Shown here: positions 3,789 through 10,081 of the stretch, one piece after another | Layout: each line of letters opens with the position of its first letter | Position numbering within the stretch: position 1 is the first letter of the stretch | DNA from: a virus | Taxonomy: Duplodnaviria > Heunggongvirae > Uroviricota > Caudoviricetes | Virus record (IMG/VR): IMGVR_UViG_2663763286_000006 | Span: 1 to 10,081 of that record | Length of the DNA: 10,081 bases | Direction: 5' to 3' (one strand) | The notes under the pieces: model-generated | The model's input: the letters and a program-made list of their open reading frames with translations, nothing else | Databases searched by the model: none | Told to the model about the DNA's origin: nothing | Position numbers and translations under genes: made by a program

Positions 3789-3815
3789 CACTTCCCCTGT
3801 CTTAAAAATCAATAT

Positions 3816-3828
3816 TTATTAGAGCAAT
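3816..3828 (-). repeat. 13-mer junction motif ATTGCTCTAATAA (minus-strand orientation), copy A
   Basis: Exact copy; it overlaps the tandem stop codons (TAA TAA) of the HAD phosphatase gene. Confidence 0.6.
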
Positions 3829-5903: not shown

Positions 5904-5916
5904 ATTGCTCTAATAA
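5904..5916 (+). repeat. 13-mer junction motif ATTGCTCTAATAA (+ orientation), copy B
   Basis: Exact copy; forms a perfect 13-bp inverted repeat with copy C, enclosing the terminator hairpin. Confidence 0.6.
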
Positions 5917-5940
5917 AAAACGTGATGAGTGTACATCACG
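5915..5940 (-). terminator. Rho-independent terminator (minus strand): stem CGTGATG/CATCACG, 6-nt loop, then U6
   Basis: 7-bp inverted repeat at 5921-5940 followed on the minus strand by TTTTTT (5915-5920); lies between the GT-A-like gene stop (5971) and the 72-aa gene start (5889). Confidence 0.55.
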
Positions 5941-5956
5941 CTTTAAAAATATGGAA

Positions 5957-5969
5957 TTATTAGAGCAAT
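5957..5969 (-). repeat. 13-mer junction motif ATTGCTCTAATAA (minus-strand orientation), copy C
   Basis: Exact copy starting 1 nt after the stop codon of the 5971..6672 gene. Confidence 0.6.
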
Positions 5970-5970
5970 A

Positions 5971-6672
5971 TTATTCTGATTCTCGCTCAAAAAATGAGCT
6001 GACAAGGGGAAGCCAATCCTCTGACACTTCGCGAGGTCGCGGTTTGCCGTGGAAAAAGATTATTCGGCAGTCTTTTGGTAATGCCCCATTCCCCCTGGAG
6101 TAACGCGCGCTCGCATATTTTGAACCAGGTTCCACAACATCGGCCTTGTAACTTACAAACCATCCTGGATACAGATCCTGAAATGCTGGTGTATCATCGC
6201 CCATAACCTTCCGTAAGAACCCCTGATCACCCCAGCACTCAGTAGTGACACAACGAGAAATCCAACCTTCCGGATCTTGCCAGAATGAACTCCAGATATG
6301 CGCTTTAACACTATTTGGTATCCACAGGGCACCGCTGCCACGATATTGTGGATGGTAAAAATCCCTAAGCATGGTGAAGCTGGTTGGTGGATGCTCTAGG
6401 ATTGGGCGTATATCACCGGCAATAACCGTGTCCAAATCCAGATAGAACAGATCATCGGTTATATCCGGTCGGAACAACTCGATTTTCGCCCACCAGCCAC
6501 GGCACTTTTGCCACTGGTTGATCAATGGGACAACTTTGACGCCAGGTACATGTAAACGCTTCAGGTCTGTCAGGCAAATAATTTCATAGCCTTTTGGCAG
6601 TTGATTAACCAGCCACTGCACATCGGAAGCGTTATAGTCACCACCAGAGCGAAAAACTAAAGCAATCTTCAT
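5971..6672 (-). CDS. Hypothetical protein, possibly GT-A-fold nucleotide-sugar transferase-like (DxD-like LDLD motif)
   Basis: 233-aa ORF whose start overlaps the phosphatase stop (ATGA). It contains …[27 protein letters not shown]…, reminiscent of the sugar-binding/DxD region of GT-A glycosyltransferases. This is a weak, memory-based resemblance. Confidence 0.45.
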
Positions 6673-7346
6673 GCTGCACCATCACCTTTCACTTTCATCA
6701 ATGTCAGGTTTCCGCAAAATACGGCACCAGTGTCGATATACTGCTGATTCCAGAATGTCTTCGGGCTTTTCACCGGAGTGTGACCAAAGATAAAACGATC
6801 TGCGCCCGAAATTTCGCCACCAATATCATCCATCGAATCACTGATACGCTCGCGCGCCCAGACAACGTTGAAAAGCGGCACCTCCTTACCGAATTGGTAT
6901 TCATTATCCGGATAGTCGGCATGGGCTATAACGATAGTTTCTTGCCCGGTGTTCAACTCAATGATATAGGGCAGACGCTTTACCAGCTCCACCAGCGCCC
7001 AGGCTAATATTTCCTGATCAGTGTCCAGCATGAAGAACCATTGTCCGCCATTCATTAGCCAGTTATTCACGTTGCCATCTGGACTTAACGCATCAATCAT
7101 CAGCCGCTCATGGTTCCCCATCACTGCCCTGAACCAGGGCATCTGCAATAGTTCCAGACATTCGACATTTTCAGTACCGCGATCGATAAGGTCGCCGACC
7201 GATATCAGTAAATCCTGCGCCGGGTCAAAATCCACACGATGGAGTTCGGACATCAGTCTGGTGTAGCAACCATGCAGATCACCAACAACCCAGACATTCC
7301 TGTATTTGGTACCGTCGATACGGTGATAAATTGTGGGTGCCATCAT
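6669..7346 (-). CDS. Serine/threonine protein phosphatase, calcineurin-like metallophosphatase (phage lambda PPase / PrpA-PrpB-like)
   Basis: Canonical signature GDLHG … GDLIDRG … GNHE (DXH-GDXXDRG-GNHE). Length and N-terminus ([28 protein letters not shown]) align with lambda PPase as I recall it. Start chosen at the ATG overlapping the upstream stop (ATGA) rather than the ORF-track ATG at 7361. Confidence 0.85.
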
Positions 7347-7957
7347 GTATTCTTCAGCCATTCTTTAAGAGTCATCTGCGGAATACCTCCCATTTTCCCG
7401 CATGAAACAACGTCAATCCGTTCACGCGCAGACTGGAATAACAAAGGCAGGTGACTTAGATTTTTTGGCGTGCCGCCGGAGTGAACGCGTGGTTCTTGTG
7501 TAGCGTCAACGCCCACCAGGGCGACATGTTTGAATCCGATATGGAAAGCCAGGTTCAGAGCGCCATATGCACTATTGCCGCTGGCAATTTCATTCTCATC
7601 TTCGCAAAGTCCGAAATGTGCGGACCAGCGCCACGCCCACCACTCGGGAGAATGCTCCATGCCACGTTCAGCCACACGACGGAAGCACAGAACGCCGTCT
7701 CTGACTTCACGTTCTTTAACATCGGGTAGTGCCATGCAATAACAAACACCACGGCGACGGCGGCCACGACCAACGCGCCGCATATTGTCTGGCGATGGAT
7801 CAAGTGTGAAAAAATAAGAAGCGCGGTTCAGCCAGTCGATGGCCCCATTGACCGCTATAATCGGCACTCCGCGCGGCGCAACAAAGTTTGCGGCGCTTGG
7901 GCCACTGCCGACGATAATAACGCGATCACTGCCTCTAAATTTATTCTTGGGAAACAT
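7343..7957 (-). CDS. Hypothetical protein with N-terminal GSGPS nucleotide-binding-like motif (Cst-II/GT42-like or MptE/DUF115-like fold?), paralog 1
   Basis: Contains [10 protein letters not shown]…IIAVNG and later [16 protein letters not shown], which resemble the IIAGNGPSL and GYKEIYLSGID motifs of Campylobacter Cst-II-type sialyltransferases and DUF115 proteins (from memory). Clearly paralogous to the next gene upstream. Confidence 0.55.
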
Positions 7958-8484
7958 TGAATTGCACTGCTCCTACTTGCATTCAAAATATGTAAATCTG
8001 CGTGTTTTTTGCGGGTATCCAGGAACTGCTGTTGCCATTTTGAAATAGAAACCTGCGTTGGATTCCGTAGGGCTTGAGGGTGCGCGCCATGCCAATGAAG
8101 GCCGTTTTGCAGAGAACAGTCATAGCCGACTAATACCACTACTTCAGCCCCTGATTCAGCAGCCAGACTGATAGCCTGCGCGCCGCTATTTACCCCTTCC
8201 GCCGGTCCACAATATCGCCTGTACTCCAACGAAAATGATTTCGCCGCCGCCAGGTTGGCTGTCACTTTGCGGAATCTCCCTCCCGGTATGGTGGATCCGT
8301 ATTGCTTCCACCATGACAAATCACCGGCGTATAAGGCATAAATGTCATCGAACATCTGCCAGGAATTGTTAACCGCGATGATTGAACAGCCAGTTTTTTC
8401 TATAGCAGCACAGTCCTCACGAGTGAGTGACGGACCGCTACCGACACAAAAAACAGTCCTAGTCGCCCTGCGTGGTATGTTCAT
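7855..8484 (-). CDS. Hypothetical protein with GSGPS motif, paralog 2 (start placed at internal ATG by homology with paralog 1)
   Basis: Contains TVFCVGSGPS…IIAVNN and VVVLVGYDCS, matching paralog 1 motif for motif. Its C-terminal 34 codons overlap the start of paralog 1 by 103 nt. The ORF-track start at 8517 is an alternative. Confidence 0.5.
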   Translation of the reverse strand: MNIPRRATRTVFCVGSGPSLTREDCAAIEKTGCSIIAVNNSWQMFDDIYALYAGDLSWWKQYGSTIPGGRFRKVTANLAAAKSFSLEYRRYCGPAEGVNSGAQAISLAAESGAEVVVLVGYDCSLQNGLHWHGAHPQALRNPTQVSISKWQQQFLDTRKKHADLHILNASRSSAIQCFPRINLEAVIALLSSAVAQAPQTLLRRAECRL

Positions 8485-8680
8485 TCTCAGCTGCAAATTC
8501 AGCCTCCAGGCGAGCATTCATTTCAGCGATTACAGGGTCCACTACAGCATCTGTTTCCTGTTCATTACGCGGCATGATCGATGCCAGCGATTCATAATTA
8601 GCCTTGGATGACACGATTATTCTCCCGATGTTAATGTGCGCTATATCAAATGGCTCATATGTACTAATTAATTTATTATT

Positions 8681-9259
8681 TTAAGCAACATACAACCACT
8701 TGTCGCCGTTCAATACATGCTCAATAGCCTCACCCTTTTTAAGGCTTATGTATTCCAGGATGGCGGTTATCGCTTGTTCTGCACCATACGCAAGAACGAC
8801 GTAGTAACCTTCCTCTCTAAGCCTGCGCATCCAGGCGATCTGCTCTTTCGTCGGGGCTTTACCATTTGGTTCTTTAAGCTCAATTCGCATGCCGTGATAA
8901 ATACCGCATGCTTTATCGAGACTCATGTCCGGATAACCTTTTTTCTGCCCTTCAGCCTTCATTTTCCCGGCGGTTGCTTTTGAACGTTTCCATCCGTTAG
9001 GCGTTGCATGCAACAGCTCATAGATGTCAGGGTGCTTGCGTTCGAAGTAATCAAAAATGAAAACCTGCTCGAAGTGCTCGCAATTTCCGTCGCGCAGGTC
9101 TGGGTTCTTTGCCAGTGCTGCAAGTGCCTTCGCATGTGGAGAAACTTCTTTTACCGGCGCAAGCGATAAGAATGGATCCTTTTTGGTTTTTGGCCTGGAC
9201 CGCCCCTTATTTCGACGCTCACTAAAAGCCTGAAACTCTTCCTCAGTAAAGCGCAACAT
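8681..9259 (-). CDS. VRR-NUC domain (PD-(D/E)xK-type) nuclease-like protein
   Basis: C-terminal half has GYPDM … IELKEPNGKAPTKEQIAWMRRLREEGYYVVLAYG, matching the VRR-NUC pattern (PD … ExK … Q … G-hydrophobic). ATG start at 9259 lies 2 nt after the upstream stop. Confidence 0.6.
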   Translation of the reverse strand: MLRFTEEEFQAFSERRNKGRSRPKTKKDPFLSLAPVKEVSPHAKALAALAKNPDLRDGNCEHFEQVFIFDYFERKHPDIYELLHATPNGWKRSKATAGKMKAEGQKKGYPDMSLDKACGIYHGMRIELKEPNGKAPTKEQIAWMRRLREEGYYVVLAYGAEQAITAILEYISLKKGEAIEHVLNGDKWLYVA

Positions 9260-9261
9260 AA

Positions 9262-9507
9262 TCAGTCAAATCCTGCCGGTCGCATGCCATATTTACGCTG
9301 TTTTGCGGCCTGCTCTTCCCTGTGCCATTGCGCACATTCAGCGTCACAATTAATGCCTGATTCAATCGATTCATTGCAGTAACGACACTTCCCTGTAAAT
9401 ACCTGGCTCACGACCTGTGCCTGCTTTCTGATGTTATCGATGGCCATGTCTTTGAGAGCTTCTAACTGATTCATGCTCAGCTCTGCATCATCAACACGTT
9501 CTGCCAA
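9262..9507 (-). CDS. TraR/DksA-family C4 zinc-finger protein (lambda Orf73-like), TTG start
   Basis: CxxC…(17)…CxxxC arrangement (CRYCNESIESGINCDAEC) in a roughly 80-aa protein with an N-terminal helical segment. TTG at 9507 is preceded by GAGGAAA at 5 nt; an internal ATG 11 codons in is an alternative start. Confidence 0.5.
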   Translation of the reverse strand: MAERVDDAELSMNQLEALKDMAIDNIRKQAQVVSQVFTGKCRYCNESIESGINCDAECAQWHREEQAAKQRKYGMRPAGFD

Positions 9508-9564
9508 TTTTGTTTCCTCGTGAAGAACCTACTTAAGGGCAGAATGATACATTTCACATTCAAA

Positions 9565-9577
9565 ATTGCACTAATAA
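9565..9577 (+). repeat. Variant copy of the 13-mer motif (ATTGCACTAATAA, 1 mismatch), + orientation
   Basis: 12 of 13 identity to the motif at 5904-5916, located in the AT-rich region upstream of the first gene of the minus-strand gene array. Confidence 0.4.
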
Positions 9578-9700
9578 TTTTCTTTTATTGAGTTAAATAT
9601 TCAACAAATGACTAGCGGTAGAATCACCATCATCTATTTCTGGCAGGCTGACTATGGCTACATCAATCACTACAACCCAAAGCACCCGGCAATATCCTCT

Positions 9701-9725
9701 TGAACCGCCCCGGAAATCCTGGAGA
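9701..9725. repeat. IS left terminal inverted repeat (TGAACCGCCCCGGAAATCCTGGAGA)
   Basis: Inverted match to 137-161. Confidence 0.8.
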
Positions 9726-9754
9726 CTAAACTCCCTGAGAAAGAGGTAAACAGG

Positions 9755-10081
9755 ATGACTAAAAATACTCGTTTTTCCCCCGAGGTCCGTCAACGGGCAG
9801 TTCGTATGGTTCTGGAAAGTCAGGGCGAATATGACTCACAATGGGCGGCAATTTGTTCCATTGCCCCAAAGATTGGCTGTACACCAGAGACTCTGCGTGT
9901 GTGGGTTCGTCAGCATGAGCGGGATACCGGGAGTGGTGATGGTGGACTCACCACCGCTGAACGTCAGCGTCTGAAAGAGCTGGAACGTGAAAATCGTGAA
10001 CTGCGCCGCAGTAACGATATCCTTCGCCAGGCTTCCGCTTATTTTGCGAAGGCGGAGTTCGACCGCCTCTGGAAAAAATGA
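9755..10081 (+). CDS. IS3-family transposase OrfA (108 aa; helix-turn-helix and leucine-zipper region)
   Basis: [57 protein letters not shown]… followed by a leucine-zipper-like [30 protein letters not shown]. Ends in an A-rich stretch (GGAAAAAATGA) where the programmed -1 frameshift into orfB is expected in this family. Confidence 0.85.

What the first reader, a model, noticed from the sequence alone, without database searches (positions are those of the whole stretch)
9262..9507. TraR/DksA-like zinc-finger protein as the first gene of the array
Small TraR-family proteins encoded by conjugative plasmids and lambdoid phages (lambda Orf73) bind the RNA polymerase secondary channel and reprogram host transcription without ppGpp. 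Its position as the promoter-proximal gene, with a non-ATG (TTG) start, suggests early, dosage-controlled expression of a host-takeover factor.
Basis: partly seen in the sequence, partly recalled or inferred. Interest (0 to 1): 0.4.

Follow-up and report, generated by a model that had tools for sequence, protein, structure and literature searches.

The report
Phage P1 pmgL: divergent TraR-like protein

Summary
The ORF is real: window 9262-9507, minus strand, 81 aa, TTG start. It is pmgL of a P1-like phage-plasmid, differing from P1 PmgL only at Y53N. It heads the co-directional pmgL-to-pmgV/upf array.

The TraR/DksA reading is supported as remote homology, not as canonical membership. Pfam PF01258, NCBIfam, BLASTP against TraR and a PDB sequence search all fail. 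Profile methods succeed:
- PHROG phrog_54, E 4e-12.
- hhalign of the PmgL family against TraR, lambda Orf73 and P2 Orf82: 98.3%, score 73.9, against at most 17.7 for 60 shuffles.
- The family profile's best PDB hit is TraR.

PmgL belongs to a family of at least 400 small proteins. They have an N-terminal DxxDxA tip, a tip-to-Cys1 spacing like TraR's, and a shorter zinc module: CxxC-x9/10-FCDADC instead of CxxC-x17-CxxC.

P1's copy departs from TraR in three ways. Its tip is DxxExS. The loop that carries TraR R48/R49 is deleted. This window's allele also replaces a near-invariant aromatic residue (Y53N).

Fold searches with the AlphaFold models did not recover TraR. RNA polymerase binding is inferred, not shown. 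The P1 record annotates a C1 operator, weak sigma-70 promoters and a late promoter upstream, so expression is not simply "early". pmgL is dispensable for plaque formation.

The parts
9262..9507 (-). pmgL CDS: 81 aa, TTG start 9507-9505, TGA stop 9264-9262. Layout: N-terminal helix with D6-x-x-E9-x-S11 tip, zinc module C41-x2-C44-x9-C54-x3-C58, C-terminal helix.
   Evidence: 97.5% identical to P1 PmgL; the only amino-acid difference is Y53N; invariant D6, G39, C41, C44, C54, C58; AF2: H7-32, H56-73.
9515..9519 (-). Shine-Dalgarno GAGGA, 7 nt upstream of the TTG start.
   Evidence: Read directly from the sequence; identical in P1.
9565..9581 (+). C1 repressor operator (P1 O26, formerly Op82), ATTGCACTAATAATTTT. 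It overlaps the -10 of predicted promoter P2pmgL and the -35 of P1pmgL.
   Evidence: P1 record annotation mapped base for base onto the window. Operator-consensus search: 4 sites in the window against 0.03 expected.
9544..9571 (-). Predicted sigma-70 promoter P1pmgL (GTGCAA-N16-TATCAT). The window has one SNP in the spacer, at 9559.
   Evidence: Annotation of AF234172 mapped. It is weak (8 of 12 consensus positions by my own count), which is below the 9-of-12 threshold of the generic promoter scan; that scan found no site in 9200-9760.
9577..9604 (-). Predicted sigma-70 promoter P2pmgL (TTGAAT-N16-GAAAAT).
   Evidence: Annotation of AF234172 mapped; not found by the generic scan.
9596..9614 (-). 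Late (Lpa-dependent) promoter LPpmgL: -22 box TAGTCATTT (9614-9606), shared with the divergent LP26, and -10 AATATT (9601-9596).
   Evidence: Annotation of AF234172; the sequence is identical in the window.
8681..9259 (-). pmgM (VRR-NUC nuclease-like, 192 aa), the next gene. Its ATG is 2 nt after the pmgL stop, so translational coupling is likely.
   Evidence: The same adjacency occurs in Cronobacter phage JK004.
9654..9700 (+). 5' stub of divergent P1 gene 26 (baseplate), truncated by an IS insertion.
9701..10081 (+). Left end of an IS3-family (IS629-like) element, with orfA at 9755-10081. It is not part of the pmgL unit but bounds its regulatory region.

Best explanation
The ORF is pmgL, the first gene of the pmgL-pmgV accessory operon of a P1-type phage-plasmid.

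What it encodes. The product is a TraR-like protein of a distinct 'short-loop' subfamily. It has one long N-terminal helix carrying an acidic tip motif, a four-cysteine treble-clef-like zinc knuckle, and a C-terminal helix.

Most likely mechanism (inferred). As with F TraR and lambda Orf73, the N-terminal helix inserts into the secondary channel of host RNA polymerase. This places the acidic tip near the active site and changes initiation kinetics, for example lowering rRNA and ribosomal-protein promoter activity, without ppGpp. The zinc module and C-terminal helix would dock at the channel rim and beta lobe.

Expected differences from TraR (inferred). The zinc loop is 8 residues shorter and lacks the TraR R48/R49/K50 segment. 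PmgL should therefore bind more weakly and should lack the beta' Si3-dependent activation function. P1's own tip (DxxExS) and this window's Y53N allele may weaken it further.

Expression. Expression is predicted from two weak sigma-70 promoters overlapped by a C1 operator, which would be derepressed on induction, and from an Lpa-dependent late promoter. Translation from TTG is expected to keep the level low.

Shown here: gene identity, start codon, remote homology over the full length, motif and spacing conservation, and genomic context. Inferred: RNA polymerase binding, any effect on transcription, and timing of expression.
For: Identity and context:
- The gene is P1 pmgL and heads the array.

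Homology to the TraR group:
- phrog_54 'DksA-like zinc-finger protein', E 3.9e-12, full length. TraR, lambda Orf73 and P2 Orf82 hit the same PHROG.
- hhalign of the PmgL family against experimentally validated TraR homologues: 97.4% and 98.3%, E 1.2e-14, 68 columns.
- Controls: 60 column shuffles gave a maximum score of 17.7 against 73.9 for the real alignment. The N-helix alone gave 97.2% and the Zn plus C-terminal part alone gave 90.2%.
- The PmgL-family profile searched against 177,635 PDB sequences gives TraR 5W1S_M as the top hit, E 0.009, aligned from residue 1.

Family-wide signatures (about 107 sequences):
- First Asp invariant; second acidic position D in 105 and E in 3; DxxDxA in 90 of 109.
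- Tip-to-Cys1 distance has a median of 33 (range 28-38), against 31-34 in TraR-type proteins. PmgL has 35.
- 76 of 106 have exactly 2 residues before the first Asp, as TraR does.

Structure prediction:
- The AF2 model (68-sequence alignment, pLDDT 79) gives helix 7-32, a knuckle and helix 56-73. This is the TraR_N / TraR_G / TraR_C layout described in PMC6970531.

Synteny:
- A short-loop member lies between a CII-like gene and a VapE/PriCT primase (L021). A canonical TraR-type protein occupies the same slot in Pseudomonas phage U5.
- Two other members lie directly upstream of VapE-like primase-helicases.

Phenotype:
- pmgL is non-essential for plaque formation, by CRISPRi (EOP 1.3) and by deletion (PMC10695390; PMC9024508). 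This fits an accessory factor like lambda Orf73 (PMC9239242).
Against: - No hit to PF01258 or to any NCBIfam TraR/DksA model, even at E up to 1-10. BLASTP against TraR finds no alignment. phmmer against the PDB finds nothing.
- The zinc motif spacing differs (x9 and CxxxC). Several family members give weak sub-threshold hits to DUF2116 'probable treble clef' instead.
- The loop bearing TraR P45/E46/R48/R49/K50 is deleted. R48 is described as important for rim-helix binding (PMC9239242), and P43A/P45A variants are binding-defective (PMC6970531).
- P1 PmgL has Glu at the position equivalent to DksA D74 and Ser at the position equivalent to A76. DksA D74E is loss-of-function, and the DksA-like RSP0166, which carries Glu there, is inactive (PMC4010833).
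- The window allele has N53 where 106 of 107 relatives have an aromatic residue next to zinc ligand C54.
- No experiment on PmgL and RNA polymerase was found in the literature searched.
Confidence: 0.55

Rival explanations
1. PmgL is a small zinc-finger adaptor or regulator that does not act on RNA polymerase. For example, it could be a treble-clef (DUF2116/TRASH/FCS-like) nucleic-acid- or protein-binding module that works with the translationally coupled VRR-NUC nuclease PmgM, or with replication proteins.
For: - pmgL and pmgM are 2 nt apart, and the pair is conserved in Cronobacter phage JK004.
- 7 of 15 family members give weak DUF2116 hits and none hits PF01258. NCBI names some members DUF2116 Zn-ribbon proteins.
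- The second knuckle, [FY]CDxxC, has the C-x3-C form of FCS/L24e-type fingers; hits to L24e are weak.
- Distant members sit next to primase-helicases and nucleases.
- VP882 TraR is reported to act in a complex with a partner protein (bioRxiv 10.64898/2026.07.27.740977).
Against: - The VRR-NUC neighbour is absent from distant members.
- The most conserved non-cysteine feature of the family is the N-terminal DxxDxA motif at a fixed distance from the zinc site. That is the signature of secondary-channel factors and has no obvious role in a nuclease adaptor.
- The N-helix alone aligns to the TraR family at 97.2%.
Confidence: 0.2
2. P1 PmgL is a decaying, largely inactive remnant of a TraR-like gene. 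It is carried along in an accessory operon and has no significant function in P1-type elements.
For: - P1-clade proteins deviate from the family consensus at the functionally critical tip positions (D to E, A to S) and in the RDDW segment after the last Cys.
- The window allele carries Y53N at a near-invariant aromatic position.
- There are many frameshifted or truncated variants among close relatives.
- Knock-down and deletion have no plaque phenotype.
- DksA D74E is inactive.
Against: - The full-length reading frame, the TTG start with its SD, and all four Cys are kept in the P1-like relatives returned by the phage and protein searches from E. coli, Salmonella and Cronobacter. The regulatory region is near-identical to that of P1.
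- R. sphaeroides DksA D80E is active, and homologues with imperfect motifs (P2 Orf82, Gp34) still work, though less well.
- Lambda Orf73 also has no plaque phenotype, yet it raises burst size.
Confidence: 0.17
3. PmgL has a virion morphogenetic role, as its name ('putative morphogenetic function') implies.
For: It lies behind an annotated late promoter and is divergent from baseplate gene 26.
Against: - The name is a positional placeholder for 16 P1 genes (PMC9024508).
- pmgL is not mentioned in the main text of the P1 virion proteome paper, and its deletion is reported as non-essential.
- It has no similarity to structural proteins.
- Its homologues sit in replication or early modules.
Confidence: 0.03

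Closest known systems
F-plasmid TraR and its validated phage homologues (lambda Orf73, P2 Orf82, VP882 Orf61, VHML Orf8); PDB 5W1S, 6N57; PMC9239242, PMC6970531
   Same: - Size of 70-80 aa.
- Helix, zinc knuckle, helix layout.
- Acidic motif within the first 3-11 residues.
- The same tip-to-Cys1 spacing (35 against 31-34).
- Four Cys, with the second pair at the start of the C-terminal helix.
- The same PHROG (phrog_54) and profile-profile homology of 98%.
- Location in mobile elements of Proteobacteria, and dispensability for plaque formation.
   Different: - Fails PF01258.
- The zinc loop is x9 instead of x17, so the P45-G54 segment with R48/R49/K50 is missing.
- The second knuckle is CxxxC.
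- The tip is DxxExS rather than DxxDxA.
- There are 5 rather than 2 residues before the first Asp.
- The C-terminal tail is longer (23 against 10-15 residues after the last Cys).
- There are no biochemical data.
E. coli DksA (PDB 1TJL) and the DksA family
   Same: An acidic DxxDxA-type tip presented on a helix, a Cys4 zinc site and a C-terminal helix. The proposed target is the RNA polymerase secondary channel.
   Different: - DksA is 151 aa, has a two-helix coiled coil and needs ppGpp. PmgL has a single N-terminal helix, as TraR does.
- PmgL carries Glu at the D74-equivalent position, a change that inactivates E. coli DksA.
Pfam DUF2116 (PF09889, 'probable treble clef') and FCS/TRASH/L24e-type fingers
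   Same: The zinc half-site pattern CxxC ... [FY]C-x3-C. Several family members (not the window protein) give weak hits, and NCBI labels some as DUF2116.
   Different: All hits are below the gathering threshold. DUF2116 models only the finger and has no DxxDxA N-terminal helix. No function is known for it.
GreA/GreB coiled-coil tip (DxxExA)
   Same: P1 PmgL's tip, D-x-x-E-x-S, has the Asp...Glu arrangement of the Gre tip motif (noted in PMC9239242).
   Different: There is no sequence or domain similarity to Gre factors, and PmgL has no Gre C-terminal domain. This is a resemblance only and was not tested.

Membership tests
Phage P1 PmgL orthologue group | High identity to P1 PmgL and the same position: first gene of the pmgL-pmgV operon, divergent from gene 26. 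| tested here: met
   97.5% identity by tblastn, with one true amino-acid difference, Y53N. The gene order and the regulatory region are the same apart from one SNP.
TraR/DksA C4 zinc-finger family (Pfam PF01258 zf-dskA_traR; NCBIfam TraR models) | Match to the curated family model at its threshold, with canonical CxxC-x17-CxxC spacing. | tested here: not met
   No PF01258 or NCBIfam hit for the window protein or for any of 15 + 4 relatives, even at E up to 1. Positive controls TraR, lambda Orf73, P2 Orf82 and VP882 Orf61 score 35-51 bits against a cut-off of 24.9. The spacing here is CxxC-x9-CxxxC.
TraR subfamily (as defined in PMC9239242 / PMC6970531) | Four zinc-ligand cysteines spanning the globular domain and the start of the C-terminal helix. 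| tested here: met
   C41, C44, C54 and C58 are invariant in 68 aligned relatives. In the AF2 model the second pair sits at the start of helix 56-73. Zinc binding itself was not tested.
TraR subfamily | N-terminal helix with a DxxDxA motif at its tip. | tested here: inconclusive
   The aligned motif is D6-D-A-E9-L-S11 (DxxExS). The wider short-loop family has DxxDxA in 90 of 109 sequences. Both functionally critical positions (equivalent to DksA D74 and A76) are conservatively changed in P1. D74E kills E. coli DksA, but D80E is tolerated in R. sphaeroides DksA.
TraR subfamily | Helix long enough to reach from the channel rim to the active site (tip Asp to first Cys about 31-34 residues). | tested here: met
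   35 residues in PmgL; family median 33; 31-34 in nine TraR-type proteins. AF2 helix 7-32.
TraR subfamily | Globular-domain residues equivalent to TraR R48 (rim helices) and E46/R49/K50 (beta' Si3). | tested here: not met
   hhalign places a 7-8-residue deletion exactly over this segment. The PmgL loop NESIESGIN has no basic residue. R48 is invariant in the TraR-type alignment.
TraR subfamily | C-terminal helix after the second Cys pair (contacts beta lobe-Si1). | tested here: met
   AF2 gives helix 56-73 with block pLDDT of 85-88. The Zn plus C-terminal half aligns to the TraR family at 90%. Contact with Si1 was not tested.
TraR subfamily | Significant full-length homology to validated members. 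| tested here: met
   hhalign 98.3%, E 1.2e-14, with shuffle and reversal controls. phrog_54 is shared. TraR is the top PDB hit of the family profile.
TraR subfamily | Three-dimensional similarity to TraR or DksA structures. | tested here: inconclusive
TraR subfamily | Binds the RNA polymerase secondary channel, inhibits rrnB P1 and r-protein promoters without ppGpp, and complements a dksA-null strain. | not testable with these tools
   Needs biochemistry and genetics. No published test of PmgL was found.
DUF2116 (PF09889) | Match to the Pfam model at the gathering threshold. | tested here: not met
   The window protein has no hit. 7 of 15 relatives give sub-threshold hits (best E 4.5e-4; for example 17.4 bits against a cut-off of 26.8).

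The most novel reading that the evidence does not exclude
PmgL-type proteins (at least 400 found here) may be a distinct, unrecognised class of minimal secondary-channel factors.
- They keep the TraR N-terminal helix and DxxDxA tip but dock through a different, shorter FCDADC-type zinc module without the rim-helix arginines. They would therefore regulate RNA polymerase in a different way from TraR, for example inhibition only, with no Si3-dependent activation, or with a partner protein.
- The P1 clade's Gre-like Asp...Glu tip could give it yet another activity at the active site.
Probability: 0.15. Interest if true: 0.6.

Novelty: new variant of a known kind. Interest (0 to 1): 0.35.

Why it matters
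P1 is a classic model phage, and P1-like phage-plasmids are common: 485 of 5,426 complete E. coli genomes hold this locus. Even so, pmgL still carries only a placeholder annotation.

If PmgL acts on RNA polymerase, three things would follow:
- P1 would join lambda, P2 and F among elements that reprogram host transcription without ppGpp.
- A natural 'loop-deleted' TraR would show which contacts are dispensable for secondary-channel regulation.
- A family of several hundred small phage proteins that Pfam's TraR/DksA model misses, and that are mostly unannotated or labelled DUF2116, would gain a function.

If PmgL does not act on RNA polymerase, it marks the limit of inferring TraR-like function from a C4 finger plus an acidic N-terminus. 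The Gourse laboratory papers already make that point for other family members.

Tried and rejected
- Pfam and NCBIfam scans of the ORF, both the TTG and ATG versions: no TraR/DksA hit, only sub-threshold noise such as TraN, PHD-like and VATC.
- phmmer against PDB sequences: only chance CD160 hits.
- BLASTP against TraR: no alignment.
- The single-sequence search of 1.84 billion representatives returned only 20 hits. Four of these were large eukaryotic poly-C2H2 zinc-finger proteins, matched repeatedly through 'TGxC..C' linkers. A Pfam scan identified them as spurious and I rejected them.
- The word-indexed search with TraR returned only close F-type TraR proteins, which were useless for diversity. 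I took TraR-type sequences from phage records instead.
- The alternative ATG start at codon 12 was rejected. It would remove the invariant Asp and the acidic motif that relatives conserve.
- A domain swap (TraR helix fused to an unrelated finger) was considered. It is disfavoured, though not excluded, because the Zn plus C-terminal half alone still aligns to the TraR family at 90%.
- The generic sigma-70 and terminator scan found nothing in 9200-9760. The promoter statements therefore rest on the P1 record's annotation.
- The P1 genome paper (PMC523184) is not held in the library.

Full report
**1. The observation**

The window carries an 81-codon ORF on the minus strand at exactly 9262-9507. 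TTG (9507-9505) is the first possible start after an in-frame TAG at 9531-9529. GAGGA lies 7 nt upstream. The stop codon (9264-9262) is followed 2 nt later by the ATG of the next gene.

The ORF heads an uninterrupted minus-strand array that runs to about position 159. The coordinates, the TTG start, the four cysteines, the acidic N-terminus and the 'first gene of the array' description are all correct.

**2. What the locus is**

- The region is 99.7% identical to roughly 95-115-kb E. coli plasmids.
- The protein is 97.5% identical to PmgL of phage P1 and its relatives P7, RCS47 and SJ46.
- The neighbours match the P1 order pmgM (VRR-NUC), pmgN, pmgO, pmgP, ppp (phosphatase), pmgQ, pmgR, pmgS, pap, pmgT and onwards. 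The window therefore comes from a P1-type phage-plasmid.
- RefSeq calls the same 246-nt CDS a 'hypothetical protein'. The P1 record calls it 'putative morphogenetic function' and notes the alternative ATG at codon 12.
- The only amino-acid difference from P1 is Y53N. That exact protein is on record on 76 contigs.

**3. Regulatory setting**

The upstream 110 bp are identical to P1 except for one SNP at 9559. Mapping the P1 annotation onto the window gives:
- The late promoter LPpmgL (9614-9596). Its -22 box is shared with the divergent LP26.
- Two predicted sigma-70 promoters (9604-9577 and 9571-9544).
- The C1 operator O26/Op82 at 9565-9581, which overlaps both sigma-70 promoters.

An operator-consensus search finds this site and three more in the window, against 0.03 expected by chance. 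A generic sigma-70 scan finds nothing in the region, so the sigma-70 promoters are weak predictions.

On the annotation, pmgL would be repressed in the lysogen, derepressed on induction, and boosted late by Lpa. None of it is shown experimentally here.

An IS3-family (IS629-like) element begins at about 9701 and cuts gene 26 47 nt after its ATG. It leaves the pmgL control region intact.

**4. Is it TraR/DksA-like?**

Direct tests fail:
- No PF01258 or NCBIfam hit, even at permissive E-values.
- No BLASTP alignment to TraR.
- No PDB hit by phmmer.
- As a positive control, TraR, lambda Orf73, P2 Orf82 and VP882 Orf61 all pass PF01258.

Profile methods succeed:
- PHROG phrog_54 ('DksA-like zinc-finger protein') matches residues 5-72 at E 3.9e-12. 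The same PHROG is hit more strongly by TraR, Orf73 and Orf82.
- I built a PmgL-family alignment and a TraR-type alignment from F TraR, lambda Orf73, P2 Orf82, VP882 Orf61 and other phage proteins extracted from GenBank records.
- hhalign gives 97.4% with 15 sequences and 98.3%, E 1.2e-14, 68 columns with 68 sequences.
- Sixty column-shuffled controls reach at most score 17.7 against the real 73.9, and the reversed alignment scores 12. The N-helix half alone gives 97.2% and the Zn plus C-terminal half alone gives 90.2%.
- Independently, the PmgL-family profile searched against all PDB sequences returns TraR (5W1S chain M) as its best hit, E 0.009, aligned from residue 1 to the first CxxC.

Remote homology over the whole length is therefore well supported.

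**5. Anatomy of the family**

The profile search finds 407 small proteins of 62-84 aa. None of the top 120 carries PF01258. A few carry or are named DUF2116.

Across about 107 of them:
- The first Asp is invariant. The second acidic position is D in 105 and E in 3. DxxDxA occurs in 90 of 109.
- 76 of 106 have two residues before the first Asp, as TraR does.
- The distance from the first Asp to the first Cys has a median of 33 (range 28-38). It is 31-34 in nine TraR-type proteins.
- The zinc motif is CxxC-x9/10-FCDADC(RDDW), that is, C-x3-C in the second knuckle and a loop 7-8 residues shorter than TraR's x17.

hhalign places the deletion over TraR P45-G54. That segment holds several functionally mapped residues:
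- R48, which contacts the rim helices.
- E46, R49 and K50, which contact beta' Si3 and are needed for full activation.
- P43 and P45 nearby, whose substitution impairs binding (PMC9239242; PMC6970531).

N-termini such as MTDIYDQASEREE... closely resemble lambda Orf73's MADIIDSASEIEE....

**6. P1's own copy is atypical within this family**

- Its tip is D6-D-A-E9-L-S11 (DxxExS), with five residues before the first Asp.
- The segment after the last Cys is AQWH rather than RDDW.
- The E9 position corresponds to DksA D74. D74E is loss-of-function in E. coli DksA, and the Glu-bearing RSP0166 is inactive. The equivalent D80E in R. sphaeroides DksA is tolerated, however (PMC4010833).
- P2 Orf82 and X. 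bovienii Gp34, which also have imperfect motifs, are still active, though less so.
- The window allele also has N53, where 106 of 107 relatives have F, Y or W next to zinc ligand C54.

**7. Structure**

- AF2 with 13 sequences gave pLDDT 65.6.
- AF2 with 68 sequences gave pLDDT 79.2 and pTM 0.42, with helix 7-32, a knuckle with a beta-bridge at residues 40/47, and helix 56-73.
- This is the same order of elements as TraR_N (2-27), TraR_G (28-57) and TraR_C (58-73).

The secondary-structure layout fits TraR, but the 3-D match is not demonstrated, and I could not measure the zinc-site geometry.

**8. Context of relatives**

- In Cronobacter phage JK004 the homologue (52% identity, ATG start) is again followed by the pmgM homologue, but it is not the first gene of its array.
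- In Achromobacter phage AchV4 it follows a nucleotide kinase.
- In metagenomic phage contigs, members sit directly upstream of VapE-like primase-helicases, beside DNA polymerase A and PD-(D/E)XK nucleases.
- One member sits between a CII-like gene and a PriCT/VapE primase. A canonical long-loop TraR-type protein occupies that same slot in Pseudomonas phage U5. I read this positional equivalence as support for equivalent function.
- One member follows a lysozyme gene. Contexts are therefore mostly, but not only, early or replication modules.

**9. Function**

- pmgL knock-down gives EOP 1.3, and its deletion is listed as non-essential (PMC10695390).
- Only pmgA, B, C, G and R were essential among 29 knock-outs, and 'pmg' is a positional placeholder name (PMC9024508).
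- This argues against a morphogenetic role. It fits an accessory factor like lambda Orf73, which slows host growth and raises burst size without being essential.

My best explanation, at about 0.55, is a TraR-like secondary-channel factor with a reduced docking module and probably weaker or narrower activity. The rivals are:
- A zinc-finger adaptor that does not target RNA polymerase, possibly working with PmgM (0.2).
- A decaying, near-inactive remnant (0.17).
- A morphogenetic role (0.03).

**10. Novelty and verdict**

The gene is known, and PHROGs already files it with DksA-like fingers. I found no paper that discusses PmgL as a TraR relative or tests it.

What is new here is the delineation of a large short-loop, FCDADC-type branch. 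It keeps the DxxDxA tip and the helix spacing but lacks the arginine-bearing loop, and it escapes PF01258. I rate it a new variant of a known kind, of moderate interest (0.35).

Noticed in passing
window 9654-10081: An IS3-family (IS629-like) element begins at about 9701, with orfA at 9755-10081. It truncates P1 baseplate gene 26 (ATG at 9654) after 47 nt. This P1-like element is therefore probably defective for tail assembly, while the pmgL control region is left intact.
   Followed up: partly
window 9349-9351 (codon 53 of pmgL): The window allele has Asn53 where P1 has Tyr and 106 of 107 family members have Phe, Tyr or Trp. This position comes immediately before zinc ligand C54. The exact protein is nevertheless on record on 76 contigs.
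   Followed up: partly
window 3812-3828 (-), 5904-5920 (+), 5953-5969 (-): Three further matches to the P1 C1-operator consensus (1, 3 and 3 mismatches). With the site at 9565-9581 that makes 4 sites, against 0.03 expected by chance. The pair at 5904-5969 lies between pmgQ and pmgR in inverted orientation.
   Followed up: no
window 8681-9259 (-): pmgM encodes a VRR-NUC-like nuclease (Pfam 21.6 bits, just under the cut-off; phrog_2363 and a Holliday-junction-resolvase PHROG). It starts 2 nt after the pmgL stop. The pmgL-pmgM pair is conserved in Cronobacter phage JK004.
   Followed up: partly
window 5971-8517 (-): pmgO and pmgP are paralogue-like. Both give weak MptE-like Pfam hits and cross-hit phrog_4603 ('alpha-2,3-sialyltransferase') and phrog_2111. 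pmgQ matches a 'glycosyltransferase' PHROG. This suggests an uncharacterised sugar-modification module in the P1 accessory operon.
   Followed up: no
L021 5001-5207 and L008 151-360: A short-loop PmgL-type protein and a canonical long-loop TraR-type protein occupy the same slot, between a CII-like regulator and a primase, in two unrelated temperate phages. Other short-loop members sit directly upstream of VapE-like primase-helicases (L019, L023).
   Followed up: partly
window 9559: There is a single-base difference from P1 (A instead of T on the coding strand of pmgL). It lies in the spacer of predicted promoter P1pmgL.
   Followed up: no
protein cluster of window 9262-9507: The 90%-identity cluster that holds PmgL has a 192-aa VRR-NUC (PmgM) protein as its representative and mixes the two proteins. 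This is presumably because some assemblies carry fused or mis-called pmgL-pmgM ORFs. Many close relatives of PmgL are also frameshift variants.
   Followed up: no
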